A DNA stretch of 64,000 nucleotides from Magnetospirillum sp. 64-120 (GTDB taxonomy: Bacteria; Pseudomonadota; Alphaproteobacteria; Rhodospirillales; Magnetospirillaceae). The notes beneath the pieces were generated by a model that had not been told where the DNA came from, made no database searches, and saw only the letters and a list, made by a program, of their open reading frames with translations. The position numbers and the translations under genes are program-made. Where the stretch lies: the NCBI RefSeq assembly GCF_001898825.1, contig NZ_MKVK01000051.1; one strand, given 5' to 3'. How positions within the stretch are numbered: position 1 is the stretch's first letter; each line of letters opens with the position of its first letter. Below, piece by piece: positions 31,354-43,567 of the stretch.

Positions 31354-32741
31354 CTTTTAATTCAATCGACTATATAGTCTTTCTATTGATTGCTATTTTC
31401 TTTATCCGCGTTATTCCCGGGGATCAATGGAAGCATAGATTCATTCTGGTGATGTCTTTTGTTTTTTATGCTTGGTGGGACTATCGATTTTTGTCCCTGA
31501 TCATTGCCGTGGCCAGCATAGCCTATATGGGCGGTTTATTTGTAAGCGACAAAAATAAATATAATAGAAAATTGATTCTTCTCTTAAGCATATCCATGCT
31601 TCTTGGCATTCTGTTTGTGTTCAAGTATTTTAACTTTTTTATTGATTCAATAAAGACCATGGGCGTCGATGCCGGATGGTCCAGCCTTAATATTATTCTT
31701 CCTGTCGGCATATCTTTTTTTATTTTTCACGCCATCAGCTACGTCGCCGATGTCCATCGCGGCAAACAAGCCCCAGAGCAATCCTTCGTCGCTTTGGCGC
31801 TCTATATCTGCTTCTTCCCCCACATGGTCGCCGGCCCCATTGTCCGCGCCACTGACTTTCTGCCCCAACTGCATGCCCGTTGGCATCCCCCGGGACGACA
31901 AGAAACAGCGGAACTGTTGTTACGCTTCTGCTGGGGCATGGCCAAGAAGGTGTTTATCGCCGATCGCCTGGCCGGTTCGCTGGTTGATCCTGTTTTCAGC
32001 AATCCGGGATCGGTTTCGCCTGAATTGGTCGTGCTGGCCGTGCTGGCCTTCGGCATTCAGATTTATGCTGATTTTTCCGGTTACAGCGACATGGCCATCG
32101 CCAGCGCCGGCCTGCTGGGCATCAAGTTCCGCGAAAACTTCCTCGCCCCTTATTCGGCCACGTCGCTACGAGAATTCTGGCAACGCTGGCATGTGTCTTT
32201 GTCCAGTTGGATCCGGGATTATCTTTATATCCCGCTGGGCGGGGGGCGCCGGTCCGAGCCGCGGGTCGCGCTGAACGTCTTTTCATCCATGGCCTTGTCC
32301 GGTTTATGGCACGGCGCGGCCTGGAATTACATGTTGTGGGGCGCCTTCCACGGCCTTGCCCTGGTGGTCGAGCAATTGTTCCGCAAGCATGTTCCCTGGA
32401 CCGCCCCGGGGGTCCTGCGCGGCGGCGTTACGTTGCTTTTCGTTTTTCTTGCCTGGTGGGTTTTCCGGGTCGCCGACATAAGCGCGCTGCAGGCCATGGC
32501 GGCGGGCTTCATCGAGCCACGCCCCTTTACCTATGTTCCCTTGTCCTTGCTGGCTTTCCTGATCATCTGCACGATTGTGATCGGAGCCGAGCATTGGGGA
32601 CTGAGGGTTCTGGAAAAACGCGGTCCCGTCGTTGTGCCGTGGTGGCTTTCGGTGACCGCTTCAGCGGTGATCTCCACGTTCTTGCTGATGACGGCCGTAC
32701 CCAGCCTGGGAATACGGAATTTCGTCTATTTCCAGTTTTGA
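31350..32741 (+). CDS. MBOAT-family membrane O-acyltransferase (AlgI/DltB/PatA-like)
   Basis: 463 aa, polytopic. Motifs VGISFFIFHAISYVADV, FWQRWHVSLSSWIRDYLYIPLGG and the conserved His in SGLWHGAAWNYMLWG. Confidence 0.9.
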   Translation: MTFNSIDYIVFLLIAIFFIRVIPGDQWKHRFILVMSFVFYAWWDYRFLSLIIAVASIAYMGGLFVSDKNKYNRKLILLLSISMLLGILFVFKYFNFFIDSIKTMGVDAGWSSLNIILPVGISFFIFHAISYVADVHRGKQAPEQSFVALALYICFFPHMVAGPIVRATDFLPQLHARWHPPGRQETAELLLRFCWGMAKKVFIADRLAGSLVDPVFSNPGSVSPELVVLAVLAFGIQIYADFSGYSDMAIASAGLLGIKFRENFLAPYSATSLREFWQRWHVSLSSWIRDYLYIPLGGGRRSEPRVALNVFSSMALSGLWHGAAWNYMLWGAFHGLALVVEQLFRKHVPWTAPGVLRGGVTLLFVFLAWWVFRVADISALQAMAAGFIEPRPFTYVPLSLLAFLIICTIVIGAEHWGLRVLEKRGPVVVPWWLSVTASAVISTFLLMTAVPSLGIRNFVYFQF

Positions 32742-32832
32742 GACCGCCGTCACGTGTGATCAGCCGCGCAAGATGGGGTACAATCCGTTTCGCAGGTGCG
32801 AAGATCGTTCCGACACAAGTGGTGGCTTGACC

Positions 32833-33516
32833 ATGATCGATTCTCTTAGCGTGGTGGCGGTGATCACCGCCCGCGGCGGTTCCAAGGGATTGCCGCGCAA
32901 GAATGTGCTGCCCGCCGCCGGCAAGCCGCTGATTGCCTGGACCATCGAGGCAGCCCATCAGGCCATCCACGTGGATCGCACCATCTTGTCGTCGGATGAC
33001 GACGAAATCATCTCCGTCGCCCGTCAATGGGGCTGCGAGGTACCTTTCATCCGCCCCCCCGAACTGTCCGGCGACACCGCCCGCAGCGAGGACGCCGTCC
33101 TTGACGCCCTGGACCGCCTGGATCGCCCCTATGACGTGGTGGTGCTGCTGCAGCCCACGTCGCCGCAACGGCTGGCCGTCGACATTGATCAATGCCTGAA
33201 ACAGCTGGTGGACAGCGGGGCCCCGTCCTGCGTCAGCATCTGCCCGGTATCCAAGCCGCCGGAATGGATGTTTCGACTGGCCGCGGGCGGCGTGCTCTCC
33301 CCCATTCTGGGTGATGCCGGCCGTGGCAAGCGCCGCCAGGATCTGCCGCCCTGCTACACGGTGAACGGTGCCGTCTACGCCGCCCATGTCGACTGGCTGC
33401 GCCGGACCCGCTGTTTCTTCACCGACGAAACCGTGGGCAGCATCATGCCGGCGGAACGTTCGCTCGACATCGACACCGCCCAAGACCTCAGGATTTTCGA
33501 GGCGCTGCACCCATGA
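32833..33516 (+). CDS. neuA: Acylneuraminate (nonulosonate) cytidylyltransferase, NeuA/LegF family
   Basis: In-frame ATG 32833 gives MIDSLSVVAVITARGGSKGLPRKNVLPAAGKPLIAWTI... Further motifs are VVLLQPTSPQR, RRQDLPPCYTVNGAVY and SLDIDTAQDL. Confidence 0.9.
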   Translation: MIDSLSVVAVITARGGSKGLPRKNVLPAAGKPLIAWTIEAAHQAIHVDRTILSSDDDEIISVARQWGCEVPFIRPPELSGDTARSEDAVLDALDRLDRPYDVVVLLQPTSPQRLAVDIDQCLKQLVDSGAPSCVSICPVSKPPEWMFRLAAGGVLSPILGDAGRGKRRQDLPPCYTVNGAVYAAHVDWLRRTRCFFTDETVGSIMPAERSLDIDTAQDLRIFEALHP

Positions 33517-33707
33517 CGGCGCCAGGCTTCCGTCCCCGTGGTTGCATAGCCCTTGATATTCTGCCAAAACAGCTTGATATCGCGGTCGCCGATGCCGAAG
33601 GTTTGACGGCGGCCCTGGCCACATTGCCCGTGCCCGCCACCATCGGTCGCGACAGCGTTTTCGGCTTGGTCGATTTGGCCGTGTGGAAGGATTTGCTGAG
33701 GCAATGA
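33513..33707 (+). pseudogene. 64-codon ORF homologous only to the C-terminal ~60 aa of the 18809-20407 protein (truncated paralog fragment)
   Basis: FRPRGCIALDILPKQLDIAVADAEGL...DLAVWKDLL vs FLPRGCIALDILPKEISVPSVDAERL...DLAIWRGLL, with 29/59 identical residues by hand alignment. ATGA overlaps occur at both ends (33513 and 33704). It could still be translated as a micro-ORF. Confidence 0.6.
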
Positions 33708-34465
33708 AACAACTTCGTGAACGTCTGGCCTCCGGCCTGCCCTGCGTCGGGGGGTGGCTGGGCACGTCGTCACCGTTGATCGCCGAGGCCATGGCCAGCT
33801 GCGGTTTTCATTGGGTCGCCGCCGACATGGAACACGGCCAGATCGGTGTCGCCGACCTACCCGCCTTGTTCGCCGCCTGCCAGTTGCGCGGTGCGGCACC
33901 GCTGGTCCGCCTGCCGGGCCACGACCCCATCCTGGCGCGGCGCTGTCTGGACGCAGGAGCCCTGGGACTGATTGTTCCGGTTGTGCAATCAGCTTCGGCC
34001 TTTGCCGATTTCGCCACCCATTGCCTGTATCCCCCCGCCGGCCGCCGCGGCGTGTCGCTGTGCCGGGCCAATGGCTGGGGCGACAGCTTCCAGGACTATC
34101 TGGGATTCCGCCCGCTGTTGGTGCCGCAAATCGAAACCGCCGCCGGTGCCGCCGCCGCCCAGGACATCGCCCGCCTCGACGTGGTGGACGCCCTGTTCCT
34201 GGGGCCTTACGACTTGTCCGCCGATCTGGGCCATCCCGGGGATTTCAATCATTCGGACGTGGTCGTCGCCATGGATCGGGTGCGTTCGGCCTGTCTTCAG
34301 GCCGGCAAGCCGTCCGGCATCCACCAGGTGGCGCCCGACCCGGCCCAGTTGCAGGCCCGCATCGCCGAAGGCTATCGCTTCGTCGCCTATTCCACCGACA
34401 TCGTCGCCCTAAGGGCGGCCTTGGGCAATCCCACAACCATCGTCGAGAGCGCATTATCGTCATGA
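33704..34465 (+). CDS. HpcH/HpaI-family class II (pyruvate) aldolase
   Basis: In-frame ATG 33704 gives MKQLRERLASGLPCVGGWLGTSSPLIAEAMASCGFHWVAADMEHG. Metal and substrate motifs are ADMEHG, LLVPQIETAAG and LFLGPYDLSADLG. Confidence 0.8.
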   Translation: MKQLRERLASGLPCVGGWLGTSSPLIAEAMASCGFHWVAADMEHGQIGVADLPALFAACQLRGAAPLVRLPGHDPILARRCLDAGALGLIVPVVQSASAFADFATHCLYPPAGRRGVSLCRANGWGDSFQDYLGFRPLLVPQIETAAGAAAAQDIARLDVVDALFLGPYDLSADLGHPGDFNHSDVVVAMDRVRSACLQAGKPSGIHQVAPDPAQLQARIAEGYRFVAYSTDIVALRAALGNPTTIVESALSS

Positions 34466-35229
34466 CCCGCCGCGTCTGTGTCATCCCGGCCCGCATGGGG
34501 TCCAGCCGGTTTCCCGGCAAGCCGCTGATTCCGCTGCTGGGACTGCCCCTGGTCATTCACGTGGCCCAGCGCTGCCGTCTTTATGGCGGCTTCGAACGGG
34601 TGATCCTGGCCACCTGCGACCAAGAAATCGTCGATGCCGCCCAGGCGCACGGATTCGAGGCGGTGATGACCTCGGACCGCCACGAACGCTGCACCGACCG
34701 GGTCGAAGAGGCGGTGGCCGCCCTTGACCTGGGTCTGGACGACGACGACGTGGTGGTGATGGTGCAGGGCGACGAGGTTCTGGTCAGCCCGCAGATGATC
34801 GCCGAGGTGGTCGAAGCCCTGGAAACCCGCCGCGAGCCGGTGGTCAACCTGGCCAGTCGGCTGTATCGGCCCCAGGACATGGAGGACATCAACGCCGTCA
34901 AGGTGGTCGCCGCCCCCGACGGGCGGGCGCTGTATTTCTCGCGCGCCGCCATCCCGTCGCGCGGCCGCGCCCCTGACGCGGCCTGCTATCAGCAGACCGG
35001 GGTGATGGCCTTCGCCCCCTCCTTCCTGGCCCGCTTCGCCCAATTGCCGCCGACGCCGTTGGAAATCATCGAATCCTGCGACATGTTGCGTCTGGTCGAA
35101 CACGGCCTGACCGTACGGATGATTTTCACGCAAACCGAAACGATCGGCATCGACACCCCCGCCGACCGTGACCGTGGCGAACAGATGCTGCGCGACGACC
35201 CCACCACCTCGCTTTATCTCAAGGTCTGA
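34462..35229 (+). CDS. KdsB-family cytidylyltransferase (CMP-ulosonic acid synthetase-like)
   Basis: ATGA overlap at 34462 gives MTRRVCVIPARMGSSRFPGKPLIPLLGLPLVIHV... Further motifs are VVVMVQGDEVLVSP, VKVVAAPDGRALYFSRAAIP and GIDTPADRD, which follow the KdsB layout. Confidence 0.8.
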   Translation: MTRRVCVIPARMGSSRFPGKPLIPLLGLPLVIHVAQRCRLYGGFERVILATCDQEIVDAAQAHGFEAVMTSDRHERCTDRVEEAVAALDLGLDDDDVVVMVQGDEVLVSPQMIAEVVEALETRREPVVNLASRLYRPQDMEDINAVKVVAAPDGRALYFSRAAIPSRGRAPDAACYQQTGVMAFAPSFLARFAQLPPTPLEIIESCDMLRLVEHGLTVRMIFTQTETIGIDTPADRDRGEQMLRDDPTTSLYLKV

Positions 35230-35230
35230 C

Positions 35231-36271
35231 ATGAACACGCTTAGGGTCGGTATCGCCGGCTATGGCATCGTCGGCAAACGGCGCCGCCACTTCATCGACG
35301 CCCATCCCGCCTTCACCACCGTGGCGGTGTGCGACCGCACCTTCACCAAAGAAGGGACCATGGCTGACGGCGTGCGCTATTATCGCGACTCCCATCGCCT
35401 GCTCGACGCCGAAAAGCTGGACGTGCTGTTCGTCTGCCTGACCAACGACGTCGCCGCCGAGGTCACCATGGCCGGCCTGCGCCAGGGACTACATGTCTTC
35501 TGCGAAAAGCCGCCGGGACGGGACGTCGCCGATATCCGCGCGGTCATCGACGTGGAAAGCCAACACCCTGGGCTGCGCCTGAAATACGGGTTCAACCACC
35601 GCTACCACGATTCGGTGCGCGACGCCCTGGCCCTGGTGCGCTCGGGCAACATGGGCGGCCTGATCGACATGAAGGGGGTCTATGGCAAGTCGGCCATCAT
35701 TTCCTTCGGCCAAAGCGATTGGCGGTCAAAGCGCGCCATCGCCGGCGGCGGCATCTTGCTGGACCAGGGCATTCACATGGTCGACCTGATGCGCCTGTTC
35801 GGTGGCGAGTTCGTCGACGTGCACGCCTTCGTCTCGAACCGCGCCTGGGGCCACGACATCGAAGACAACGCCTATGCGCTGATGCGCACCAAGGATGGCG
35901 CTGTCGCCATGCTGCATTCTTCCGCCACCCAGTGGCGTCACCGTTTCCAGTTGGACATCACCCTGGAAAAGGGGTCGCTGATCCTGTCGGGCATCCTGTC
36001 CGGGTCGAAAAGTTACGGGGCCGAAACGCTGACCGTGGCCTGGGCCTGCGACAATGGCGCCGGCGACCCGCGCGAACAGACCACCCGCTACAACAACGAT
36101 CCGTCCTGGGCCGACGAAATCGCTGATTTCGCCGATGCCATCGCCCGTGACCGCCCAATCAGCGAGGGGTCGTCCGACGACGCGCTGAAGACCATGGCCC
36201 TGGTCTACAAGATCTATTGCGCCGACCCGGAATGGAAACAGAAATGGGGGTTGCGGGATGCCGAAGGCTGA
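35231..36271 (+). CDS. Gfo/Idh/MocA-family NAD(P)-dependent oxidoreductase
   Basis: ATG 35231 gives MNTLRVGIAGYGIVGKRRRHFIDAHP..., with VFCEKPPGRD (the EKP motif). 346 aa. Confidence 0.85.
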   Translation: MNTLRVGIAGYGIVGKRRRHFIDAHPAFTTVAVCDRTFTKEGTMADGVRYYRDSHRLLDAEKLDVLFVCLTNDVAAEVTMAGLRQGLHVFCEKPPGRDVADIRAVIDVESQHPGLRLKYGFNHRYHDSVRDALALVRSGNMGGLIDMKGVYGKSAIISFGQSDWRSKRAIAGGGILLDQGIHMVDLMRLFGGEFVDVHAFVSNRAWGHDIEDNAYALMRTKDGAVAMLHSSATQWRHRFQLDITLEKGSLILSGILSGSKSYGAETLTVAWACDNGAGDPREQTTRYNNDPSWADEIADFADAIARDRPISEGSSDDALKTMALVYKIYCADPEWKQKWGLRDAEG

Positions 36272-36995
36272 ATCCGCGCCGCTGGCCGGCCGTTGCGCCG
36301 TGGTCACCGGCGGCACCCGCGGCATCGGCGCCGCCATCGCCCGTCATCTGCTGGCCGACGGTGCCGCCGTCACCGTGACCGGCACCAGTGCCGAGGGTGC
36401 GGCCCAGGCGCCCGAGGGCTGTGGCTATGTGGCCGCCGACTTCACCGATCCGCGCTCTCTTGACGAATGCGCCGCCCGGTTGACGGAACTGGCTCCCGAC
36501 ATCCTGATCAACAATGCCGGCATCAACAAGGTCGGCCCCTTCGCAGAGATTGACCCCGCTGATTTCACCCGCATCCAGGCGGTGAACGTCACCGCGCCGT
36601 TTCGCCTGATCCAGGCGGTTTTGCCGGCCATGAAGCAGCGCCAATGGGGACGTATCGTCACCATCAGCTCGATCTGGGGCAAAATCAGCAAGGAAGGCCG
36701 CGCCCCCTATTCAGCGTCGAAATTCGCCGTCGACGGCATGACCGCCGCCCTGTCGGCCGAGGTGGCGCAGTTCGGCATCCTGGCCAATTGCGTGGCACCC
36801 GGCTTCATCGACACGGAACTGACCCGTCGGGTCTTGGGCCAGGCCGGAATCGACGAGATGGCCGCAAAGGTCCCTGCCCGCCGCCTGGGACGGCCCGAAG
36901 AAGTGGCCGCCTTCGTCGCTTGGCTGGCCGGTCCGCAAAACACCTATGTCAGCGGCCAGAACATCGCCGTGGACGGAGGCTTCACCCGTGTCTGA
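36258..36995 (+). CDS. Classical short-chain dehydrogenase/reductase (SDR)
   Basis: 245 aa. AVVTGGTRGIGAAIA, NNAGI and the catalytic YSASK. It overlaps the upstream gene by 14 nt. Confidence 0.88.
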   Translation: MPKAESAPLAGRCAVVTGGTRGIGAAIARHLLADGAAVTVTGTSAEGAAQAPEGCGYVAADFTDPRSLDECAARLTELAPDILINNAGINKVGPFAEIDPADFTRIQAVNVTAPFRLIQAVLPAMKQRQWGRIVTISSIWGKISKEGRAPYSASKFAVDGMTAALSAEVAQFGILANCVAPGFIDTELTRRVLGQAGIDEMAAKVPARRLGRPEEVAAFVAWLAGPQNTYVSGQNIAVDGGFTRV

Positions 36996-38058
36996 ATCCC
37001 TGGTCATCGCCTCTCATTGCGGTCCGTACCGCGTCGACTTCGACCGCGTTCCCGAGGCTTTGGCCGCAGACGGCAAGCCCTGTCACGTCATCGTCGATTC
37101 CCGCGTCGCCGACTTGCATGGCCAACGGCTGGCGTCCATCCTCGACAGTGCCGCCAGCGTGCTGCGCGTCGAGGCGACCGAGGACAACAAGTCGCTGGAC
37201 GCCTTCCCGCCCTATGTGGAACAGCTAGTCGCCCATGGCCTGCGCCGCGACCACGTGCTGTTGGCCATCGGCGGCGGCATCATCCAAGACATCACCTGTT
37301 TCCTGGCCTCGACCATGCTGCGCGGGGTGGACTGGCATTTCATTCCCACCACTTTGCTGGCCCAGGCGGATTCCTGCATCGGCTCGAAAAGCTCGGTCAA
37401 TTGCGGCGCCGCCAAGAACATTCTGGGTACCTTCAAGCCGCCACGCCGCATCGTGCTGGACACCCGGTTCCTGGAAACCCTGGACCGCCGGGAAATTCAT
37501 TCCGGTGTCGGTGAGATCCTTAAGGTGCACGCCATCGCCGGCGCCCACGCCTTCGACACCCTGGCCGCCGAGTTCGACGCGCTGTTCACCGACGACGCTG
37601 TCTTGAACCGGGCGATCCGCCGCGCCCTGGAAATCAAGAAGGGCTATATCGAAACGGACGAATTCGACACCGGTCCGCGTCTGGTGTTCAATTTCGGCCA
37701 TTCCTTCGGCCATGCCATCGAGGCGGCCACCCATTTCGCCATTCCCCACGGCATCGCCGTCACCATCGGCATGGACATGGCCGCCGCCATCGCCGCCGGA
37801 CTGGGGTTGGAAGACGGATCGGCTCAACACCGCATGCATGCGGTGCTGGCCGCCAACTACCAAGGCTTCGAGGATGTGCCGATCCCGTTGGACCCGTTCA
37901 TGGCGGCGCTGTCCAAAGACAAGAAGAACACCGGCGCCGGCCAGGTCACCGTCATCCTGCCCCAGCCCGACGGCGGCGTCGCCCGCGTGGTGGTGGCGGC
38001 CGACCAGCGCTTCCGCGACCTGTGCGTCGACTATCTGAACCATGGACGGCGGGCATGA
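36988..38058 (+). CDS. 3-dehydroquinate-synthase-like protein (sugar-phosphate cyclase / DHQS superfamily)
   Basis: GTG 36988 overlaps the SDR stop. Motifs are AIGGGIIQDITCFLAS, QADSCIGSKSSVN, GVGEILKVHAI, NFGHSFGHAIE and IPHGIAVTIGM, matching the NAD and metal-binding His motifs of the DHQS fold. Confidence 0.8.
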   Translation: MSESLVIASHCGPYRVDFDRVPEALAADGKPCHVIVDSRVADLHGQRLASILDSAASVLRVEATEDNKSLDAFPPYVEQLVAHGLRRDHVLLAIGGGIIQDITCFLASTMLRGVDWHFIPTTLLAQADSCIGSKSSVNCGAAKNILGTFKPPRRIVLDTRFLETLDRREIHSGVGEILKVHAIAGAHAFDTLAAEFDALFTDDAVLNRAIRRALEIKKGYIETDEFDTGPRLVFNFGHSFGHAIEAATHFAIPHGIAVTIGMDMAAAIAAGLGLEDGSAQHRMHAVLAANYQGFEDVPIPLDPFMAALSKDKKNTGAGQVTVILPQPDGGVARVVVAADQRFRDLCVDYLNHGRRA

Positions 38059-38999
38059 GCGCGCCGCGCCGTATCGCCGTCGCCTCGCGGTCGTTTTCCC
38101 GCCATCCGCTGCTGCGGGCCGAGCTGATCGCCGCCCACCCCCAGGCCCAGATCACCTTCAACGATGCCGGAAAGTCCCTGGCCGGGGCCGAACTGATCGC
38201 TTTTCTTGCCGGTCATGACCATGCCATCACCGCGCTGGAACGCCTTGATGCCGACACCCTGGCCGCCCTGCCCGAGCTGGAAGCCATCGGCAAATACGGC
38301 GTCGGCCTGGACATGATCGACCTGGACAGCATGCGCCGGTTGGGCAAGCGCCTGGGCTGGACCGGCGGCGTCAACCGCCGTTCGGTCACCGAACTGGTTC
38401 TGTCCGCCGCCATCGCCCTGTTACGCCGCGTGCCCGAAGCCAATCTGGAAGTGCGCAGCGGCACCTTCCGCCAACTCATGGGCCGCCACCTGTCGGACCG
38501 CGTCGTCGGCATCGTCGGCTGCGGCCATATCGGCAAGGATTTGGCGGCCATTCTGGTGCAAGCCTTTAACTGTACCGTGCTGGCTCACGACATCTTGGAC
38601 TTCCCCGAATTCTACGCCCGCCACGGTATCGTCAAAAGCGGCCTGGACGACCTGTTGCGCCAGGCTGACGTAGTTACCTTGCACTTGCCCCTGGATTCCT
38701 CGACCCGTCTTATTTTGAATGCAGAACGTCTGGCGCTGATGCGCCCGGACGCCATCTTGATCAATGCCGCGCGAGGTGGATTGGTGGACGAGGCGGCGCT
38801 GAAGGCCATGCTGAAGGACGGGCGGCTGGCCGGGGCCGCCTTCGACGTGTTCGACCCCGAACCGCCGCTGGATGCCGAGCTTCTGAACCTGCCCAATTTC
38901 CTGGCCACCCCCCATATCGGCGGCAGCGCCGAGGAAGCGGTCATCCTGATGGGCCGGGCCGCCATCCGCGGACTGACCGACAACCGGGTGCCCGACTGA
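38055..38999 (+). CDS. D-isomer-specific 2-hydroxyacid dehydrogenase (PGDH/GyaR-like)
   Basis: ATGA overlap at 38055. Motifs are VGIVGCGHIGKDLA, LINAARGGLVDEAAL and TPHIGGSAEEA (catalytic His). Confidence 0.88.
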   Translation: MSAPRRIAVASRSFSRHPLLRAELIAAHPQAQITFNDAGKSLAGAELIAFLAGHDHAITALERLDADTLAALPELEAIGKYGVGLDMIDLDSMRRLGKRLGWTGGVNRRSVTELVLSAAIALLRRVPEANLEVRSGTFRQLMGRHLSDRVVGIVGCGHIGKDLAAILVQAFNCTVLAHDILDFPEFYARHGIVKSGLDDLLRQADVVTLHLPLDSSTRLILNAERLALMRPDAILINAARGGLVDEAALKAMLKDGRLAGAAFDVFDPEPPLDAELLNLPNFLATPHIGGSAEEAVILMGRAAIRGLTDNRVPD

Positions 39000-39027
39000 T
39001 CGTCGCCGCGACAGGAGAAATACCGCC

Positions 39028-40722
39028 ATGCGATCGGTATTGCGCAAGCTGGAGCAAGTAGCCCGCGATCCGGTGCTGCGGCGCTATTTGGGTCGCCGGC
39101 TGCTGGGTCGGGTGACGGCGCCACCCATGCTGGCCGCCGGCAGCCACCCGGCTTATCTGTCCGTTCCCGTGTCTTTTTCCGCCGCCTGCGCACCCTGGCT
39201 GCGGCCGGCCGCCGCCCCGGCCGAGCCGGATGCCCCTCTGCGCCTGGATCTGCCGGGCGAAACCGTGGTGCTGAGCCAGCCGTCGCAAGCCTTCGGCCGG
39301 ACTTTTGCCGACATCGAGACCGAAGCGGCCTTGCACCGCTTCGCCTGGCTGCCGCTTAATCCTGACGTTTCACCGGATTGGCTTTGGGCATTGTGGCACC
39401 AGTGGTGCCAGCGCCACGCGGACGGCTGGGACGGGCTGGCATGGGAGGCCTATACCGCCGCCGAACGGGTGTGCATCCTGTTGGATTACGCCCGCCGCCA
39501 CGGCGTGCCGGCACCGCAGGACGATTTTCTGACCGTTCTGGCCGGTCATGCCCCGCGCATCCTGGCGCGGCTGGAATACCAAGGCGAATCCGCCACCCAC
39601 AACCATCTGGCCAATAACGGTCGCGGATTGTACCGGCTGGGGGTGGAACTGGGCATCGATGAGGCCGCCCAGGCCGGTCTCGCCATCCTGGAAGCCGAGG
39701 CCGACAGGCTGCTGCTGCCCTCGGGCCTGCTGCGCGAGGGATCAAGCCATTACCACTTCCTTTATCTGCGCAATTACGCCGACGTCTGGTTTTGCGCCCG
39801 CCGCCACGCCCGCCCCGAAACCGACAGGCTGGAAGCGCTGACCCGACGGCTGGCCACCCCCGCTCGGTCTTTGGTTCTGCCCGGCGGCATGCCGTTGATC
39901 GGCGACATTTCCCCCGATTCGCCCCCCGATCATCTGGCGGGATTGTGGACCGGACAGTTCGGCCAAGGCTGGACCGCCGGCTTGGCCGACGACGAAATCA
40001 AAAGCCTGGAAGGTCTTCTGGGCACATTGCCGGCTTCCGACCCCGCCTTGGCGGCAGCCGACGGCTTCCTGCGGCTACAGGACGGCGACTGGGCCCTGCT
40101 GGCCCGCGCCGAACCGGGCGGATGGCCGTTCTATCCGGGGCACGCTCATCAGGATATGGGCAGTTTCGAACTGCATCACGGCACGTTGCCGGTGATCGTC
40201 GATCCTGGTCGTGGCGGCTATGGTGAAAGCGGCGATGCCGCCTTCTATCGCTCAGCCGCCGCCCACAATGGCATCACCCTGGCGGATGCCGACCCTTATC
40301 CGGCGAACAAGCCTTATTTCGACGACCGCTTCCGCCATGACGTCGCCGGCCCGGCACCTGAAGTCAGGCTTTGCTCCCAATCGACCACCATCGCCTTTAC
40401 CGGATATTGTCGTTTTGGGATCGGAACAGTGTCCCGGACCCTGACCCTGGACCAGGATCGCCTGATCATCACCGACCATGTGGACGGGAAAGGACGCCAC
40501 CCCCTGGTCCGGCGGTTTCATACCCCGCTCGACATCCGTCTCGAATCCGGCGGTGTGATCCTTGGACAGCGGTTCCGCTTGAGCGCGACGGGGACGACGA
40601 TCACAATCGAGCCGAGAACCCTGTGGACCTCGTATGGCCGTGGCCGCCCCGGCCATGCGGTCGTACTGACCCAGAACGCCGCCCTGCCCTGGAGCGGCCA
40701 AACCATCATCGAGGTCATCTGA
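39028..40722 (+). CDS. Heparinase II/III-family protein
   Basis: 564 aa. The N-terminal region is alpha-rich. The C-terminal part has GHAHQDMGSFELHHGTLPVIVDPGRGGY...YRSAAAHNGITL, typical of the Hepar_II_III domain. Confidence 0.75.
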   Translation: MRSVLRKLEQVARDPVLRRYLGRRLLGRVTAPPMLAAGSHPAYLSVPVSFSAACAPWLRPAAAPAEPDAPLRLDLPGETVVLSQPSQAFGRTFADIETEAALHRFAWLPLNPDVSPDWLWALWHQWCQRHADGWDGLAWEAYTAAERVCILLDYARRHGVPAPQDDFLTVLAGHAPRILARLEYQGESATHNHLANNGRGLYRLGVELGIDEAAQAGLAILEAEADRLLLPSGLLREGSSHYHFLYLRNYADVWFCARRHARPETDRLEALTRRLATPARSLVLPGGMPLIGDISPDSPPDHLAGLWTGQFGQGWTAGLADDEIKSLEGLLGTLPASDPALAAADGFLRLQDGDWALLARAEPGGWPFYPGHAHQDMGSFELHHGTLPVIVDPGRGGYGESGDAAFYRSAAAHNGITLADADPYPANKPYFDDRFRHDVAGPAPEVRLCSQSTTIAFTGYCRFGIGTVSRTLTLDQDRLIITDHVDGKGRHPLVRRFHTPLDIRLESGGVILGQRFRLSATGTTITIEPRTLWTSYGRGRPGHAVVLTQNAALPWSGQTIIEVI

Positions 40723-42603
40723 ATGTGCGGTCTGGTCGGTATTTTCCATCCCCACGGCACCCAGCCGATGGCGGCGGACGTGAACGCCATGCTGGCGGTG
40801 ATCCGCCATCGCGGCCCCGACGGCACCGGCATCCATGTTTCCGACGACCGGCGCTTTGTCGGCGGATTCAGCCGCTTGGCCATCATCGACCTGGCCACCA
40901 GCAACCAGCCGCTGGTCCAACAGGGTGGACAGCGGGTGCTGCTGGGCAATGGGGAAATCTATAATTTCCTGGAATTGCGGGCCGAGCTGGAAACCCTGGG
41001 CTATGTCTTTTCCACCCACGGCGACATGGAACCGGCGCTGAACGCCGAAGCGCAATGGGGACCGGACTTCCTGGAGCGGCTGAACGGCATGTTCGCCCTG
41101 GCGGTTTACCGCCGCGACAGCCATTCGTTGCTGCTGGCCCGCGACCGGTTGGGCATCAAGCCGCTTTACTGGGCTCGGACGGACAGCGGCGCCTTATTGT
41201 TCGCCAGCGAAATCAAGGCGCTGTTCGCGTCGGGCCTGATCCGCCCGGCCATTGACGAAAGCGTCCTGGACAGTTGGCTGCTGCATGGCTATGTGCCCGG
41301 CGAGCGCTGCCTTTATGCCGGTGTGCACAAGCTGCCGCCCGGCCACCGGCTTGACATCGACGCCACCGGCACCGTGACCGTCACCCGCTGGTGGCAGCCG
41401 CACGCCGCCGCCATCACCTATGAAAGCGACGACCACGCCCGTGATTCCCTGCTGGCGCTTTTGGAAGATTCCGTCCGCCTGCAATTGCAAAGCGACGTCC
41501 CGCTGGGGGTGCTGCTGTCGGGTGGCCTTGATTCCGGCCTGATCACCGCCCTGGCGGCCAAGAACAGTTCCCGCCCGCTGCATACCTACACCGTCCGCTT
41601 CACCGGGGCATCCCGCGACGAATCACCGCTGGCAGCCCTGGTGGCAAAACGTTACGGTGCCGTACACACCTGTTTCGACCTGGGGCTGGAACAGGTGACC
41701 GAGCACTTGACCGCCTTGGCCTGGCATTGCGAGGAACCGCTGTCCGACGCCAGCCTGTTGCCCAACCATTTGATCAACCATGTCTTGGGACGCGACATCC
41801 GCGTGGTGCTGAACGGAACCGGCGGCGACGAATTGTTCGCCGGCTATGGCCGCTATTTTTCCCTGCCGCAAGAGACGGCCTGGCGGCGTTTGCCCCGCTC
41901 CCTGCGCCGCTCGGCCCTGCCGCTGATCGGCCTGCTGGCGCCGTCCCGCCGCTGGCAATTGCAGCGGGCCGAGTCCTGGGACGACGATCCCGGTGCCTAT
42001 CTGGCCGGACACAGCACCCAATTTCCGACGCCGTGGGTCCGCCGATTGGGCCGGCAGCCGGCGGCCGCGGCCCAAAGTGCCGCCTTCGACCTTTGGCAGG
42101 GCGACCGCCAGGGCGGCCTGCTGGCCGCCGACATCCAGACCTATTTGCCCGAGGATCTGCTGCTTTTGCTGGATCGCACCACCATGGCGGCCAGCGTCGA
42201 AGGCCGGGTTCCCTTCCTTGATCACCGGCTGGTGGAAGCCGCCTTGGCCTTGCCCGCCGCCTTGCGCACCCCCGGCAACCGGCAAAAGGGGCTGCAACGG
42301 CGGATGGCCGCAACCATGCTGCCCGCCGAAGTGCTGAACGCCCCCAAGCAGGGCTTCGCCTCGCCGGTCCCCAATTGGATGGGTGGCAGCCTGCTGCCCG
42401 TTGCCCGACGCCTGCTGACCAGCCGTCGGAGCCGCCAACGCGGCTGGTTCCGGGCTGAGGGCATCGATGCGCTGTTGGCGGATCCGGTGACTAATGCTTT
42501 CCGCCTTTACGCCCTGACCATGTTGGAACTCAGCGTGCGCATCCACGTGGACGCCCAGGCCCGCTCGGTCCCCAGCCTAACGGACATCCTTGACGATGAA
42601 TGA
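40723..42603 (+). CDS. Asparagine synthase (glutamine-hydrolysing)-family amidotransferase, AsnB/WbpS-like
   Basis: MCGLVGIF has the Ntn Cys2. GNGEIYNF is present, and the PP-loop is LLSGGLDSGLITAL. 626 aa. The start immediately follows the upstream stop. Confidence 0.9.
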   Translation: MCGLVGIFHPHGTQPMAADVNAMLAVIRHRGPDGTGIHVSDDRRFVGGFSRLAIIDLATSNQPLVQQGGQRVLLGNGEIYNFLELRAELETLGYVFSTHGDMEPALNAEAQWGPDFLERLNGMFALAVYRRDSHSLLLARDRLGIKPLYWARTDSGALLFASEIKALFASGLIRPAIDESVLDSWLLHGYVPGERCLYAGVHKLPPGHRLDIDATGTVTVTRWWQPHAAAITYESDDHARDSLLALLEDSVRLQLQSDVPLGVLLSGGLDSGLITALAAKNSSRPLHTYTVRFTGASRDESPLAALVAKRYGAVHTCFDLGLEQVTEHLTALAWHCEEPLSDASLLPNHLINHVLGRDIRVVLNGTGGDELFAGYGRYFSLPQETAWRRLPRSLRRSALPLIGLLAPSRRWQLQRAESWDDDPGAYLAGHSTQFPTPWVRRLGRQPAAAAQSAAFDLWQGDRQGGLLAADIQTYLPEDLLLLLDRTTMAASVEGRVPFLDHRLVEAALALPAALRTPGNRQKGLQRRMAATMLPAEVLNAPKQGFASPVPNWMGGSLLPVARRLLTSRRSRQRGWFRAEGIDALLADPVTNAFRLYALTMLELSVRIHVDAQARSVPSLTDILDDE

Positions 42604-43567
42604 CGACAGCCGTCCCCGCGCCGATGTCAGCGTCATCATGCCGGCCTACAACAACCAGGACAGCATCGTCGCCGCCCTGACCAGCATCGCCGCCCAGACC
42701 ACCCTGCCGCACGAGGTGATCGTCGTCGATGACGGATCCACCGACGGTACCATCGCCGCTGTCCGATCCATGCATGGACGCATGAACGGTGTCCGCCTAA
42801 GACTGTTCCGGCAGCAAAACAACGGCGCGGGGGCGGCGCGCAACCGGGCCATCTGGGCGTCCACCGGAACTTGGCTGGCCTTCCTGGACGCCGACGACCA
42901 ATGGCTGCCGACCAAGCTTGAACGGTCCATGGCCGTCAACTTCGCCCAAGACCTGCTGATGAGCTGCCACAATCTTTACGGGGTCGGCAAGAACGGCGAA
43001 CACGTCATCGACAGCCGATCCCGGTGGGCCAGCAATCCCGGCGACCCTTACGGGACTTTGTTTCTGCGCGGCTTCATCTCGTCTTCCACCGTGGTGGTGC
43101 GCCGCGACGTGACCGTCGCCGTCGGCGGTTTCGACACCGGCCTGCGCTCGGCCCAGGATTACGAATTGTGGCTGGCGATCCTGGACCGGGCCGGAACCCG
43201 CTTCGTCTGCTTCGACGAACCCTTGCTGCGCTACACCCTGGCCGAGGACGGCATCACCAGCAAGGTCGGGCGCAAGATCGCCTGTTCATTGGCCATTTTG
43301 CGCCGTCACATGGGAATATTGAAGCGCCACGGCGGTGCGGTGATCGTTCCGGTGCTGACCCGCACCGCCATCATCCAGGTCGAAGCATGGCGCAATTACC
43401 GGGCCCAAGGCCGCTTCCTGGCCGCCCTGGCACAACTGGCCTTGCTGCCCTGGCGTCTGCTGGAAATGTTGGTCCGCCTGCCCTTCGCCGATGGTCGGCG
43501 CCCCGACTTCCTGTCCCGATTGATCCCAGCCGAAGAGGTGGACCTGACCGCGGATCCGACGCCATGA
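42596..43567 (+). CDS. GT2-family glycosyltransferase
   Basis: VSVIMPAYNNQDSIVAALTSIAAQTTLPHEVIVVDDGSTDGT and FLDADD. The start may be TTG 42590 or ATG 42596. Confidence 0.88.
   Translation: MNDDSRPRADVSVIMPAYNNQDSIVAALTSIAAQTTLPHEVIVVDDGSTDGTIAAVRSMHGRMNGVRLRLFRQQNNGAGAARNRAIWASTGTWLAFLDADDQWLPTKLERSMAVNFAQDLLMSCHNLYGVGKNGEHVIDSRSRWASNPGDPYGTLFLRGFISSSTVVVRRDVTVAVGGFDTGLRSAQDYELWLAILDRAGTRFVCFDEPLLRYTLAEDGITSKVGRKIACSLAILRRHMGILKRHGGAVIVPVLTRTAIIQVEAWRNYRAQGRFLAALAQLALLPWRLLEMLVRLPFADGRRPDFLSRLIPAEEVDLTADPTP

What the first reader, a model, noticed from the sequence alone, without database searches (positions are those of the whole stretch)
33704..38999. Aldolase - KdsB-like - oxidoreductases - DHQS-like - 2-hydroxyacid dehydrogenase block: possible non-canonical activated keto-deoxy acid or cyclitol pathway
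Six tightly coupled genes (ATGA at 33704, 34462 and 38055; 14-nt and 8-nt overlaps at 36258 and 36988). The block combines three things. First, an HpcH/HpaI class II aldolase, which condenses pyruvate with aldehydes to give 4-hydroxy-2-keto (3-deoxy-2-ulosonic) acids. Second, a KdsB-family enzyme, which makes CMP-activated 3-deoxy-2-ulosonic acids. Third, a DHQS-superfamily enzyme, whose canonical substrates are 3-deoxy-ulosonate phosphates or sugar phosphates that it cyclises. A Gfo/Idh/MocA enzyme, an SDR and a D-2-hydroxyacid dehydrogenase are also present. Known ulosonic acid routes (KdsA, NeuB) are PEP-dependent. A pyruvate-aldolase entry followed by CMP activation would be unconventional, and I do not recognise it as a described glycan pathway. 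Part of the block may have other roles. The Gfo/Idh/MocA + SDR pair may belong to the Leg pathway (ptmF/ptmA-like) or epimerise C4/C8 of the nonulosonate. The 2-HADH/DHQS-like pair could build a glycerate- or hydroxyacid-type N-acyl side chain that the methyltransferases then methylate.
Basis: inference. Interest (0 to 1): 0.8.

Follow-up and report, generated by a model that had tools for sequence, protein, structure and literature searches.

The report
Orphan CMP-sugar-acid cassette, AroB-like enzyme
Six tightly packed genes in a Magnetospirillum surface-sugar island belong to a widespread gene set with no described function that probably builds and CMP-activates an unusual acidic sugar, using a pyruvate aldolase, a re-tooled Kdo-type activating enzyme and a look-alike of the shikimate enzyme dehydroquinate synthase.

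Summary
The six genes exist as described, and four of the five stated start/stop junctions are real. 33704 is not a junction. The tight coupling continues through three more genes to 43567.

The window is Magnetospirillum sp. 64-120. The block lies in a legionaminic-acid-type glycan island.

The DHQS-like protein belongs to NCBIfam TIGR04425, still named "putative". It has over 6000 homologues and is found in at least 585 species across many phyla.

In 49 species-level loci it is flanked by:
- an SDR (96%)
- a Gfo/Idh/MocA enzyme (86%)
- a PGDH-like 2-HADH (82%)
- a KdsB-like enzyme (65%)
- a GmhA-like isomerase (63%)
- an HpcH aldolase (41%)

The block is composite. HpcH–KdsB-like–Gfo and SDR–DHQS-like–2-HADH also occur apart.

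The DHQS-like enzyme keeps all 13 DHQS active-site residues checked, including the arginine that a DOIS-annotated homologue lacks. This points to a DAHP-like C7 2-ulosonate 7-phosphate as substrate.

The KdsB-like enzyme keeps its catalytic residues but has lost the tyrosine that binds Kdo C5-OH. It is accessory, not housekeeping.

I found no published description of the cassette. The likely role is synthesis of a novel CMP-activated, non-Kdo acid sugar. The order of steps and the product are inferred.

The parts
33704..34465 (+). HpcH/HpaI-family class II pyruvate aldolase (253 aa)
   Evidence: PF03328, 96.9 bits. HpaI/GarL/RhmA models score 100-136 bits, far below their equivalog cutoffs. 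The HpaI catalytic residues H45, R70, E149 and D175 are conserved in the alignment to 4b5s/2v5j. It has a 4-nt overlap with the next gene. Among annotated genes it is next to the KdsB-like gene for 23 of 24 HpcH ORFs in other species.
34462..35229 (+). KdsB-family cytidylyltransferase with a re-modelled sugar pocket (clade 'V1', 255 aa)
   Evidence: NF009905 265 bits (cutoff 255); TIGR00466 165 bits (cutoff 155). R10, R15, K19, Q98, D100, E101, K143, R157, E207, R213 and D235 (E. coli numbering) are invariant. H181>Q, Y185>I/M, E210>D and Q211>M in 120 of 120 close homologues. Y185 binds Kdo C5-OH in E. coli KdsB (PMC12199768).
35231..36271 (+). Gfo/Idh/MocA oxidoreductase (346 aa)
   Evidence: Pfam. 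Closest solved relatives are inositol 2-dehydrogenase-like proteins, glucose-fructose oxidoreductase and aldose-aldose oxidoreductase. Present in 86% of DHQS-like loci. It also travels with HpcH-KdsB-like when the DHQS-like gene is absent.
36258..36995 (+). Classical SDR, FabG-like (245 aa)
   Evidence: Pfam and NCBIfam. An SDR lies beside the DHQS-like gene in 96% of 49 loci. It overlaps the DHQS-like start by 8 nt.
36988..38058 (+). AroB-related enzyme, family TIGR04425 (356 aa, GTG start)
   Evidence: TIGR04425 447.6 bits (cutoff 400); aroB 257.6 bits (below cutoff 305). Best solved relatives are true DHQS (176 bits), then DOIS 112, EEVS 105 and DDGS 87. All 13 A. nidulans DHQS active-site residues checked are invariant in 20 family members. 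A DOIS-annotated homologue has R264>G, N268>E and K356>N instead.
38055..38999 (+). D-isomer 2-hydroxyacid dehydrogenase, phosphoglycerate-dehydrogenase-like (314 aa)
   Evidence: Pfam. Best NCBIfam hit is PGDH at 195.8 bits, below cutoff. Best solved relatives are D-3-phosphoglycerate dehydrogenases at 149 bits. Present in 82% of loci, usually directly after the DHQS-like gene.
39028..40722 (+). Heparinase II/III-like protein, same coupled gene run
   Evidence: PF07940. The gap to the 2-HADH gene is 28 nt, and to the next gene 0 nt. The Hepar-AsnB-GT2 trio follows the cassette in several other loci.
40723..42603 (+). Asparagine-synthase-type glutamine amidotransferase, same coupled gene run
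   Evidence: Pfam and NCBIfam; junctions.
42590..43567 (+). Family 2 glycosyltransferase, same coupled gene run
   Evidence: PF00535; 14-nt overlap with the AsnB-like gene.
18809..20407 (-). 532-aa protein with no Pfam match; candidate transferase associated with the cassette
   Evidence: 40-45% identical to the ~530-aa protein that sits directly upstream of HpcH-KdsB-like in L088 and L093, and near the cassette in L001, L014, L016, L021, L026, L030 and L091. Weak C-terminal hit to TIGR04326 'surface carbohydrate biosynthesis protein'. The role is inferred.
33517..33703 (.). 187-nt intergenic gap that separates the block from the upstream PseF/NeuA-like cytidylyltransferase gene
   Evidence: Sequence. 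No promoter-like site, no Rfam match and no convincing terminator.

Best explanation
The block is the first six genes of a nine-gene, translationally coupled run (33704-43567). It lies inside a legionaminic-acid-type surface-glycan island of Magnetospirillum sp. 64-120. It is one version ('V1') of a widespread accessory cassette with no described function. I read the cassette as a pathway to a CMP-activated acidic sugar that is not Kdo.

Proposed steps; only the family and site assignments are shown, the chemistry is inferred:
1. A C7 2-keto acid 7-phosphate resembling DAHP is made. One route starts from sedoheptulose 7-phosphate: GmhA-type isomerase (housekeeping copy here, cassette-encoded elsewhere), then Gfo as aldose-1-dehydrogenase, then a lactonase in some loci, then the PGDH-like 2-HADH oxidising C2. 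The other route is aldol condensation of pyruvate or hydroxypyruvate with erythrose 4-phosphate by HpcH.
2. The AroB-like enzyme applies dehydroquinate-synthase chemistry to this acid: NAD+/metal-dependent oxidation, beta-elimination of the 7-phosphate, and re-reduction.
3. The adjacent SDR reduces the resulting ketone. The product is either a 7-deoxy-heptulosonic acid or, if ring closure occurs as in DHQS, a hydroxylated quinate-like carbocyclic acid.
4. The KdsB-family enzyme, whose catalytic core is intact but whose Kdo-specific pocket is changed, couples an alpha-hydroxy or 2-ulosonic acid to CMP.
5. Neighbouring transferases add it to the glycan.

Rough likelihoods:
- A dedicated, non-housekeeping pathway to a new CMP-activated acid: about 0.75.
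- The AroB-like enzyme acts on a carboxylate-bearing C7 7-phosphate: about 0.6.
- The sedoheptulose-7-P route: about 0.35.
- All six enzymes work on one product: about 0.4.
For: Shown:
- Family assignments and coupling.
- The cassette recurs in at least 585 species across many phyla.
- Neighbour frequencies around the DHQS-like gene: SDR 96%, Gfo 86%, 2-HADH 82%, KdsB-like 65%, GmhA-like SIS 63%, HpcH 41%.
- HpcH pairs with the V1 KdsB-like clade in 20 of 21 loci. The HisC-like aminotransferase plus a second Gfo pairs with the V2 clade: all 13 V2 loci carry it, out of 16 loci with the aminotransferase.
- All 13 DHQS ligand and catalytic residues checked are invariant, including R264. A DOIS-annotated homologue has lost R264, N268 and K356.
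- The GmhA-like gene scores 122-130 bits against GmhA models.
- A gene above the 6-phosphogluconolactonase cutoff (TIGR01198 129.5 bits, cutoff 124.45) lies beside the cassette in 9 loci, twice together with the SIS gene.
- The 2-HADH is closest to phosphoglycerate dehydrogenases. The Gfo enzyme is related to enzymes that oxidise the anomeric carbon or cyclitols.
- The HpcH catalytic residues are intact.
- The KdsB-like catalytic residues are intact but Y185, H181 and Q211 are replaced in clade-specific ways. Y185 and Q98 bind Kdo C5-OH, and 5-deoxy-Kdo is not a substrate for E. coli KdsB (PMC12199768).
- The cassette is accessory. It occurs in Actinomycetota MAGs (L023, L074). Its 90%-identity clusters hold 3-4 members with no M. 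gryphiswaldense protein, whereas PurH clusters with strain MSR-1. MSR-1 carries a different island at purH.
- The window has a GT9 heptosyltransferase, which implies a housekeeping heptose pathway that could supply GmhA.
Against: - No biochemical data exist for any member.
- The two halves occur apart.
- The V1 KdsB-like pocket is the same whether or not a DHQS-like gene lies within 9-10 kb. This argues that DHQS-like/SDR do not shape the cytidylyltransferase substrate, unless they are encoded elsewhere in those genomes.
- If the AroB-like product is carbocyclic, its CMP ester would be a poor glycosyl donor, because there is no ring oxygen. This is chemical reasoning, not a test.
- The window has no SIS or lactonase gene, so the sedoheptulose route rests on housekeeping enzymes here.
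- The Ilumatobacteraceae loci also show no SIS gene within the sequence fetched.
- The role of HpcH in loci that already have SIS, Gfo and 2-HADH is unexplained.
- The assignment of R264/K250 as carboxylate ligands and the A. nidulans sequence come from my memory. Only the residue numbering was self-checked.
Confidence: 0.45

Rival explanations
1. Two independent pathways lie side by side. HpcH-KdsB-like-Gfo makes and CMP-activates a 3-deoxy-2-ulosonic acid from pyruvate plus an aldose, a PEP-independent route. SDR-DHQS-like-2-HADH separately turns DAHP or an analogue into a quinate-like carbocyclic acid. That acid is attached as a non-glycosidic substituent, for example an O-acyl group, to the same glycan.
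For: - The modules are separable.
- The KdsB-like pocket does not depend on the DHQS-like gene.
- L032 has MBOAT, an AMP-binding ligase, methyltransferases, an HMGL-like aldolase, then SDR-DHQS-like. L024 and L026 place an MBOAT gene upstream of SDR-DHQS-like.
- The window itself has a DltB-like MBOAT and two methyltransferases just upstream.
- The full DHQS site fits true cyclisation.
Against: - 84% of DHQS-like loci carry some cytidylyltransferase within 9 kb; 8 of 49 carry none.
- An MBOAT was detected near only 2 of 49 loci with my query.
- There is no adenylating enzyme in the window.
- The GmhA-like, lactonase and 2-HADH partners are not needed if ordinary DAHP is the substrate.
Confidence: 0.3
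2. The block tailors the legionaminic acid made by the upstream genes. Gfo and SDR would act as PtmF/PtmA-type enzymes or as C4/C8 epimerising oxidoreductases. The KdsB-like enzyme would be a variant CMP-nonulosonate synthetase. 2-HADH/DHQS-like would build a hydroxy-acid N-acyl group that the methyltransferases then modify.
For: - The block sits in an island with LegB-like, LegC-like, NeuC, PtmE-like and NeuB genes, and with two more CTP_transf_3 genes.
- The cassette is often next to NeuB and PseF-like genes elsewhere.
- Loss of the C5-OH-binding tyrosine would suit a 5-acylamido sugar.
Against: - L044 and L066 have a separate PtmE-Gfo-PseF-like-SDR set as well as the cassette's own Gfo and SDR.
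- Only 20% of DHQS-like loci have a NeuB gene, and 24% a PseF-like gene, within 9 kb.
- A complete DHQS phosphate and carboxylate site spaced for a C7 acid does not fit a C9 nonulosonate or a C3 acyl precursor.
- The window already has a PseF/NeuA-like enzyme at 32833-33516.
Confidence: 0.12
3. These are ordinary primary-metabolism genes (kdsB for LPS Kdo, aroB for shikimate, serA-like) that happen to lie together.
For: The KdsB-like protein passes the TIGR00466 kdsB cutoff. Public annotation calls it 3-deoxy-manno-octulosonate cytidylyltransferase and calls the 2-HADH phosphoglycerate dehydrogenase.
Against: - The DHQS-like protein fails the aroB cutoff and passes TIGR04425.
- The cassette is present in Actinomycetota.
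- No orthologue appears in the closely related M. gryphiswaldense MSR-1 among the top hits, although PurH is at least 90% identical.
- The Kdo C5-OH ligand Y185 is lost.
- The genes are embedded and translationally coupled in a glycan island.
Confidence: 0.03

Closest known systems
CMP-Kdo pathway (KdsD/KpsF isomerase, KdsA synthase, KdsC phosphatase, KdsB/KpsU cytidylyltransferase)
   Same: - A KdsB-family enzyme with all nucleotide- and metal-binding residues conserved.
- In many loci a sugar-phosphate isomerase with a SIS domain is encoded alongside, as KpsF is with KpsU.
- The product is presumably a CMP-linked alpha-keto or alpha-hydroxy acid.
   Different: - No KdsA or KdsC is present. 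A class II pyruvate aldolase takes the place of a PEP-dependent synthase.
- The isomerase is GmhA-like, not KdsD-like.
- Kdo-contacting Y185 (and H181, Q211) are replaced.
- The cassette occurs in bacteria without LPS.
Kdo8N pathway of Shewanella (KdnB oxidase + KdnA aminotransferase acting before KdsB); recalled from memory, not tested here
   Same: The V2 form of the cassette pairs a dehydrogenase (Gfo) and an aminotransferase with its own KdsB-like clade. This is the same logic of aminating an ulosonic acid before CMP activation.
   Different: - The enzyme families differ: Gfo/Idh/MocA and HisC-like here.
- This window carries the HpcH form, not the aminotransferase form.
- The DHQS-like/SDR/2-HADH genes have no counterpart in that pathway.
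3-dehydroquinate synthase (AroB) and the sugar-phosphate cyclases (DOIS, EEVS, DDGS)
   Same: - Same fold and domains.
- Closest to true DHQS by score.
- All 13 DHQS active-site residues checked are kept.
   Different: - It is a separate NCBIfam family (TIGR04425) that fails the aroB cutoff.
- It is never seen here with shikimate genes, but with SDR, Gfo, 2-HADH, a SIS isomerase and a cytidylyltransferase in glycan islands.
- Unlike the DOIS-annotated homologue, it keeps R264, N268 and K356.
- Whether it cyclises is unknown.
Validamycin-type C7-cyclitol pathways (EEVS, then nucleotidylation and pseudo-glycosyl transfer); recalled from memory
   Same: A DHQS-superfamily enzyme is combined with a nucleotidyltransferase and redox tailoring, starting from a C7 sugar phosphate.
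   Different: - The active-site signature here is of the DHQS type, not the DOIS type.
- Activation is by a CMP-forming KdsB-type enzyme, not an NDP-forming enzyme.
- The context is cell-surface glycan, not secondary metabolite.
CMP-legionaminic acid locus ptmE-ptmF-ptmB-ptmA of Campylobacter; gene order recalled from memory
   Same: A Gfo-type gene, a cytidylyltransferase gene and an SDR gene lie together next to nonulosonate genes. The window has a Leg-type pathway upstream.
   Different: - Loci L044 and L066 carry both a ptmEFBA-like set and the cassette.
- The cytidylyltransferase here is KdsB-type, not NeuA/PseF-type.
HpaI/GarL/RhmA class II pyruvate aldolases
   Same: Same family and same catalytic residues.
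   Different: - It scores far below every equivalog cutoff.
- It is fixed next to a cytidylyltransferase, often with a 4-nt overlap. This implies a biosynthetic role, not a catabolic one.

Membership tests
KdsB (CMP-Kdo synthetase) family | Sequence membership in curated models | tested here: met
   TIGR00466 165 bits (cutoff 155.2); NF009905 265.2 bits (cutoff 255).
KdsB (CMP-Kdo synthetase) family | Nucleotide- and metal-binding catalytic residues (R10, R15, K19, Q98, D100, D235 in E. coli numbering) | tested here: met
   Invariant in 24 V1 sequences and in 21-22 of 22 V2 sequences.
KdsB (CMP-Kdo synthetase) family | Kdo-specific sugar contacts (Y185 to C5-OH; H181 in the active site) | tested here: not met
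   Y185>I/M and H181>Q in 120 of 120 V1 homologues; F/L and I in V2. The role of Y185 comes from PMC12199768.
KdsB (CMP-Kdo synthetase) family | Housekeeping role in LPS core synthesis (conserved orthologue, LPS gene context) | tested here: not met
   - The gene sits in a glycan island.
- Its 90% cluster holds only 4 members, with no MSR-1 protein.
- The cassette is present in Actinomycetota.
- The rest of the source genome could not be searched.
KdsB (CMP-Kdo synthetase) family | CTP + Kdo -> CMP-Kdo activity | not testable with these tools
   Needs an enzyme assay.
3-dehydroquinate synthase (AroB) | Passes the aroB equivalog model | tested here: not met
   TIGR01357 257.6 bits, below the cutoff of 305.
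3-dehydroquinate synthase (AroB) | Metal, phosphate and carboxylate ligands (R130, D146, K152, N162, E194, K197, K250, R264, N268, H271, H275, H287, K356) | tested here: met
   All are invariant in 20 family members. The reference sequence was recalled from memory, and its numbering was self-checked.
3-dehydroquinate synthase (AroB) | Shikimate-pathway context and role | tested here: not met
   No aro genes were detected among the annotated or de novo clustered neighbours of the DHQS-like gene in the fetched loci. The recurring partners are glycan genes.
TIGR04425 (AroB-related putative sugar phosphate phospholyase, cyclizing) | Score above the curated cutoff over the full length | tested here: met
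   447.6 bits (cutoff 400), covering residues 7-351 of 356.
Carboxylate-free sugar-phosphate cyclases (DOIS type) | Loss of the DHQS residues R264, N268 and K356 | tested here: not met
   A DOIS-annotated protein (L089) has G, E and N at these positions. This family has R, N and K.
HpcH/HpaI class II aldolase | Family membership plus catalytic H45, R70, E149 and D175 | tested here: met
   PF03328 96.9 bits; the residues are seen in the alignment to HpaI structures.
HpcH/HpaI class II aldolase | Identity with a characterised specificity (HpaI, GarL, RhmA) | tested here: not met
   102-136 bits against cutoffs of 369-441.
Legionaminic acid pathway helpers PtmF/PtmA | The cassette's Gfo and SDR are the only such pair associated with the PtmE/NeuA-type genes | tested here: not met
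   L044 and L066 hold both a PtmE-Gfo-PseF-like-SDR set and the cassette's own pair. No direct comparison with the Campylobacter proteins was possible.

The most novel reading that the evidence does not exclude
The cassette makes a previously unknown class of nucleotide-activated building block: a C7 acid derived from sedoheptulose 7-phosphate. The route oxidises C1 and C2 to a 2-ulosonate 7-phosphate, then applies dehydroquinate-synthase chemistry. The product would be either a 7-deoxy-heptulosonic acid or a carbocyclic, hydroxy-quinate-like 'carba-ulosonic' acid, CMP-activated by a re-tooled KdsB and placed on cell surfaces. Carriers would span hundreds of bacterial species, including Prochlorococcus, SAR116, SAR86, Nitrospirota, Acidobacteriota and Leptospirales genomes. 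It would also be the first biosynthetic use of a class II pyruvate aldolase in place of a PEP-dependent synthase for a CMP-sugar.
Probability: 0.2. Interest if true: 0.9.

Novelty: new variant of a known kind. Interest (0 to 1): 0.62.

Why it matters
CMP-activated acidic sugars (Kdo, sialic, legionaminic and pseudaminic acids) cap bacterial surfaces. They govern immune recognition, phage attachment and motility.

To my knowledge, all described routes to them use PEP-dependent synthases. This cassette combines three things not described together:
- a pyruvate aldolase
- a KdsB-type enzyme that has lost a Kdo-specific contact
- an AroB look-alike with an intact DAHP-type site

It is common in environmental and marine bacteria, yet databases annotate its genes as kdsB, aroB and serA. 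That mis-assigns the genes to primary metabolism in genome-scale models.

Untargeted nucleotide-sugar profiling has recently found unassigned CMP-linked species in a related Magnetospirillum (bioRxiv 10.64898/2026.04.20.719630). That strain does not appear to carry this cassette. Even so, the work shows that such orphan CMP-sugars exist and can now be measured.

The cassette offers a defined gene set, and culturable carriers in which to look for one: M. moscoviense, Paramagnetospirillum caucaseum, Devosia subaequoris and Hyphobacterium lacteum.

Tried and rejected
- Literature. Seven full-text searches found no description of the cassette. They covered TIGR04425; dehydroquinate synthase with cytidylyltransferase, nonulosonic, legionaminic, KdsB, HpcH, MocA or phosphoheptose isomerase; Leptospira rfb; and bradyrhizose/caryose. 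The Leptospira comparative paper only notes a second kdsB in some serovars.
[quoted passage not shown] I rejected this as evidence. The MSR-1 purH locus holds a different island. No hit on an MSR-1-sized contig appears among the top 120 homologues of the window DHQS-like protein, the window KdsB-like protein or the M. moscoviense DHQS-like protein.
- Plasmid collection. No cassette member was found there; the best match was 36.6% identical and was an ordinary aroB. The search did yield a DOIS-annotated sequence that I used as an outgroup.
- RNA and signal scans. There is no Rfam family in the window, and no promoter-like site and no convincing terminator in 32700-39200.
- Housekeeping kdsB/aroB reading: rejected (see rival explanations).
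- ptmF/ptmA reading: considered unlikely.
- A C10 acid from heptose 7-phosphate plus pyruvate as the DHQS-like substrate: rejected. The conserved phosphate and carboxylate sites imply DAHP-like spacing. This is inference.
- I did not run structure prediction. It would only have recovered the known folds.

Full report
**1. What is in the sequence**

The window is high-GC, about 0.52-0.67 in 2-kb windows.

| Gene | Coordinates | Key scores |
|---|---|---|
| HpcH/HpaI aldolase | 33704-34465 | PF03328, 96.9 bits |
| KdsB-family cytidylyltransferase | 34462-35229 | NF009905 265 (cutoff 255); TIGR00466 165 (cutoff 155) |
| Gfo/Idh/MocA oxidoreductase | 35231-36271 | Pfam |
| FabG-like SDR | 36258-36995 | Pfam |
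| DHQS-fold protein | 36988-38058 | TIGR04425 447.6 (cutoff 400); aroB 257.6 (cutoff 305, fails) |
| PGDH-like D-2-hydroxyacid dehydrogenase | 38055-38999 | PGDH 195.8, below cutoff |

TIGR04425 is named 'AroB-related putative sugar phosphate phospholyase (cyclizing)'.

The junctions, read directly from the sequence, are -4, +1, -14, -8 and -4 nt.

The 'ATGA at 33704' is not a junction. The upstream gene, a PseF/NeuA-like cytidylyltransferase, ends at 33516, leaving a 187-nt gap.

The coupling does not stop at 38999. A heparinase II/III-like gene (+28), an asparagine-synthase-type amidotransferase (0) and a GT2 (-14) follow.

No Rfam family, promoter-like site or convincing terminator was found in or around the block.

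**2. Where it sits**

Exact-sequence look-ups identify the source as Magnetospirillum sp. 64-120 (proteins OJX68200-OJX68206, contig of 382,750 bp).

The block lies in a ~55-kb surface-glycan island that holds:
- a legionaminic-acid-type set: a LegB-like dehydratase, a LegC-family aminotransferase, NeuC, a PtmE-like CBS-nucleotidyltransferase and NeuB
- two further CTP_transf_3 genes
- methyltransferases
- a DltB-like MBOAT
- an ABC exporter
- many glycosyltransferases, including a GT9 heptosyltransferase

purH splits the island.

**3. The block is a conserved, accessory cassette**

The DHQS-like protein has more than 6000 homologues at E<=1e-20, typically about 60% identical.

The best 80 come from Alphaproteobacteria, Beta-, Gamma-, Delta- and Zetaproteobacteria, Acidobacteriota, Actinomycetota, Nitrospirota, Planctomycetota, Verrucomicrobiota, Elusimicrobiota, Bdellovibrionota, Leptospirales, Coxiellaceae, Prochlorococcus, SAR116 and SAR86.

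I searched the ORFs of these loci with the window's proteins and with proteins from a Sulfotelmatobacter locus. In the 49 loci with at least 7 kb on both sides, the neighbours within 9 kb were:

| Neighbour | Share of loci |
|---|---|
| SDR | 96% |
| Gfo/Idh/MocA | 86% |
| 2-HADH | 82% |
| KdsB-like | 65% |
| GmhA-like SIS isomerase | 63% |
| HpcH | 41% |

Three forms appear:
- **V1** (18 loci; the form in this window): HpcH next to one KdsB-like clade. They co-occur in 20 of 21 loci, and among annotated genes HpcH is adjacent to the KdsB-like gene for 23 of 24 HpcH ORFs.
- **V2** (13 loci; for example M. moscoviense): a HisC-like aminotransferase plus a second Gfo with a second KdsB-like clade. 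All 13 V2 loci carry the aminotransferase.
- **A third form** (9 loci): a NeuA/PseF-type or other CTP_transf_3 enzyme, often next to NeuB.

De novo clustering of all neighbouring ORFs added further recurrent partners:
- a protein above the 6-phosphogluconolactonase cutoff (TIGR01198 129.5 bits, cutoff 124.45) in 9 loci
- TIGR04326 'surface carbohydrate biosynthesis' proteins in 17 loci
- LIC12162-family transferases in 10 loci
- B12-radical-SAM enzymes in 9 loci
- several methyltransferase families

**4. The block is composite**

I started from homologues of the KdsB-like protein and inspected six loci.
- Four have SDR-DHQS-like nearby.
- Two have HpcH-KdsB-like-Gfo without it. One of these reads HpcH-KdsB-like-Gfo-heparinase-like-AsnB-GT2, which is the window's order minus SDR-DHQS-like-2-HADH.
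- L091 has KdsB-like-Gfo-SDR-DHQS-like without HpcH or a 2-HADH.

Conversely, SDR-DHQS-like occurs without any detected cytidylyltransferase in 8 of 49 loci. L032 is one example: MBOAT, AMP-binding ligase, methyltransferase, HMGL-like aldolase, cyclase, methyltransferase, SDR, DHQS-like.

The sugar-pocket signature of the V1 KdsB-like clade is the same in loci with and without the DHQS-like gene.

**5. What the active sites say**

*DHQS-like protein.* I aligned it to A. nidulans DHQS. I recalled that sequence from memory, and its numbering reproduced all 13 expected residues. All of R130, D146, K152, N162, E194, K197, K250, R264, N268, H271, H275, H287 and K356 are invariant in 20 family members.

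A plasmid-borne protein that PGAP annotates as 2-deoxy-scyllo-inosose synthase has R264>G, N268>E and K356>N. N268>E matches the known DOIS glutamate (from memory), which supports the alignment.

Solved-structure searches rank true DHQS first (176 bits), then DOIS (112), EEVS ValA (105) and DDGS (87).

I infer a substrate with DAHP-like spacing between carboxylate and phosphate, that is, a C7 2-ulosonate 7-phosphate.

*KdsB-like protein.* All nucleotide- and metal-binding residues are kept. H181 is replaced by Q (V1) or I (V2), Y185 by I/M or F/L, E210 by D, and Q211 by M/L or S.

In E. coli KdsB, Q98 and Y185 hydrogen-bond the Kdo C5-OH, and 5-deoxy-Kdo is not accepted (PMC12199768). The enzyme is therefore very unlikely to be Kdo-specific, and V1 and V2 probably take different substrates.

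*HpcH.* It keeps the HpaI residues H45, R70, E149 and D175.

*Other enzymes.* The 2-HADH is closest to phosphoglycerate dehydrogenases. The Gfo enzyme is closest to inositol-dehydrogenase-like proteins, glucose-fructose oxidoreductase and aldose-aldose oxidoreductase. The SIS protein found elsewhere is GmhA-like (122-130 bits).

**6. The genes are not housekeeping**

- The cassette occurs in Actinomycetota MAGs (L023, L074).
- The 90%-identity clusters of the six proteins have 3-4 members, with no M. gryphiswaldense protein. PurH clusters with M. gryphiswaldense MSR-1 and M. sulfuroxidans.
- MSR-1 has a different island at purH.
- MSR-1 does not appear among the best homologues.

**7. Most likely mechanism (inference)**

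The recurring partners form a chemically complete chain:
1. A GmhA-like isomerase converts sedoheptulose 7-P to heptose 7-P.
2. Gfo oxidises C1 to the lactone.
3. A Pgl-type lactonase opens it.
4. The PGDH-like 2-HADH oxidises C2, giving a hept-2-ulosonate 7-phosphate, a 3-hydroxy analogue of DAHP.
5. The AroB-like enzyme carries out NAD+/metal-dependent oxidation, phosphate elimination and re-reduction.
6. The SDR reduces the ketone.

The same acid, or the 3-deoxy acid, could also be made by HpcH from hydroxypyruvate or pyruvate plus erythrose 4-phosphate.

The KdsB-like enzyme then forms a CMP ester of the product or of the aldol product. TIGR04326-type or GT2 transferases would install it. 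The window encodes a distant TIGR04326 relative at 18809-20407 (-), whose homologues sit directly upstream of HpcH-KdsB-like in other loci.

In this window the SIS and lactonase genes are absent. A housekeeping GmhA is plausible because the island encodes a heptosyltransferase.

Weak points:
- The modules are separable, and the KdsB-like pocket does not change with DHQS-like presence (section 4).
- A fully carbocyclic product would be a poor glycosyl donor.
- HpcH looks redundant in loci that also have SIS, Gfo and 2-HADH.

The main rival is therefore two parallel pathways: a CMP-3-deoxy-ulosonic acid made through the aldolase, and a quinate-like acid used as a substituent.

**8. Comparison with what is known**

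The closest systems are:
- the CMP-Kdo pathway and its capsule paralogues KpsF/KpsU
- the Shewanella Kdo8N branch
- AroB and the sugar-phosphate cyclases
- cyclitol pathways that nucleotidylate their product
- the Campylobacter ptmEFBA genes

The cassette shares enzyme families and logic with each, and fails a defining feature of each (see the membership table).

I found no paper that describes it. NCBIfam release 20.0 still labels the central enzyme 'putative'.

**9. Verdict**

The one-pathway reading and the ptmF/ptmA reading are not established.

It is best filed as a new variant of CMP-sugar-acid biosynthesis, built from known enzyme families. It is widespread and uncharacterised, and the product is unknown.

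Noticed in passing
window 27300-28688 (+): This is a GT2 glycosyltransferase fused to a C-terminal domain homologous to NeuA/PseF-type cytidylyltransferases (24% identity to the protein at 32833-33516, pairwise E 6e-10). Pfam does not detect the C-terminal domain. Homologues ('GT2ct') lie beside the cassette in about a quarter of other loci.
   Followed up: partly
window 18809-20407 (-): This 532-aa protein has no Pfam match. It is 40-45% identical to the ~530-aa protein found directly upstream of HpcH-KdsB-like in unrelated loci (L088, L093, L091, L001), and has a weak TIGR04326 hit. It is a candidate transferase for the cassette product. Here it lies next to an ABC exporter (20404-22446) and a PMT_2-like membrane protein (16801-18759).
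   Followed up: partly
window 30436-32741 (+): A DltB-like MBOAT (31350-32741; TIGR04091 142 bits, below cutoff) is preceded by a 305-aa protein with no family match. This stretch has the lowest GC in the window (0.52 for 30001-32000). That suggests a separately acquired O-acylation module. In L032 an MBOAT and an AMP-binding ligase lie in the same gene run, about 4-6 kb upstream of SDR-DHQS-like.
   Followed up: partly
window 26603-27295, 32833-33516 and 34462-35229 (+): Three separate CTP_transf_3 cytidylyltransferase genes, plus the degenerate domain at 28017-28688, lie within 9 kb, against a single NeuB (13364-14449). This implies more than one CMP-activated product from this island.
   Followed up: no
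window 44760-46340 (-) and locus L086 (M. gryphiswaldense MSR-1, HG794546.1 3438736-3460316): purH sits in the middle of the glycan island. MSR-1 has a PurH at least 90% identical, but flanked by a different gene set: a sugar C-methyltransferase, a cupin, a Gfo enzyme and a GmhA-like SIS gene. The island is hypervariable between close relatives.
   Followed up: partly
loci L088, L091, L092, L093 and 9 of the species loci: B12-binding radical SAM enzymes and several methyltransferase families recur next to HpcH-KdsB-like. They could C- or O-methylate the product. None of the radical SAM genes is in this window.
   Followed up: no
window 4197-5699 (-) and 5352-7184 (+): Two divergently oriented UDP-glucose/GDP-mannose dehydrogenase-family ORFs overlap at their 5' ends as listed. 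The + strand ORF has a roughly 150-aa N-terminal extension, so its true start is probably further downstream.
   Followed up: no
bioRxiv 10.64898/2026.04.20.719630: The preprint reports M. gryphiswaldense CMP-linked species of low mass (203 and 217) that are not alpha-keto acids, plus C10-marker ulosonic acids, with no genes assigned. A mono- or di-methylated amino-hydroxyquinate would have the same elemental composition as HexNAc and methyl-HexNAc. This is arithmetic only, and that strain appears to lack the cassette.
   Followed up: partly
window 43549-44679 (+): The last ORF of the + strand run gives only a weak DegT hit (23.6 bits). It has relatives downstream of the cassette in Ilumatobacteraceae loci (26-27% identity). 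Its function is unclear.
   Followed up: no
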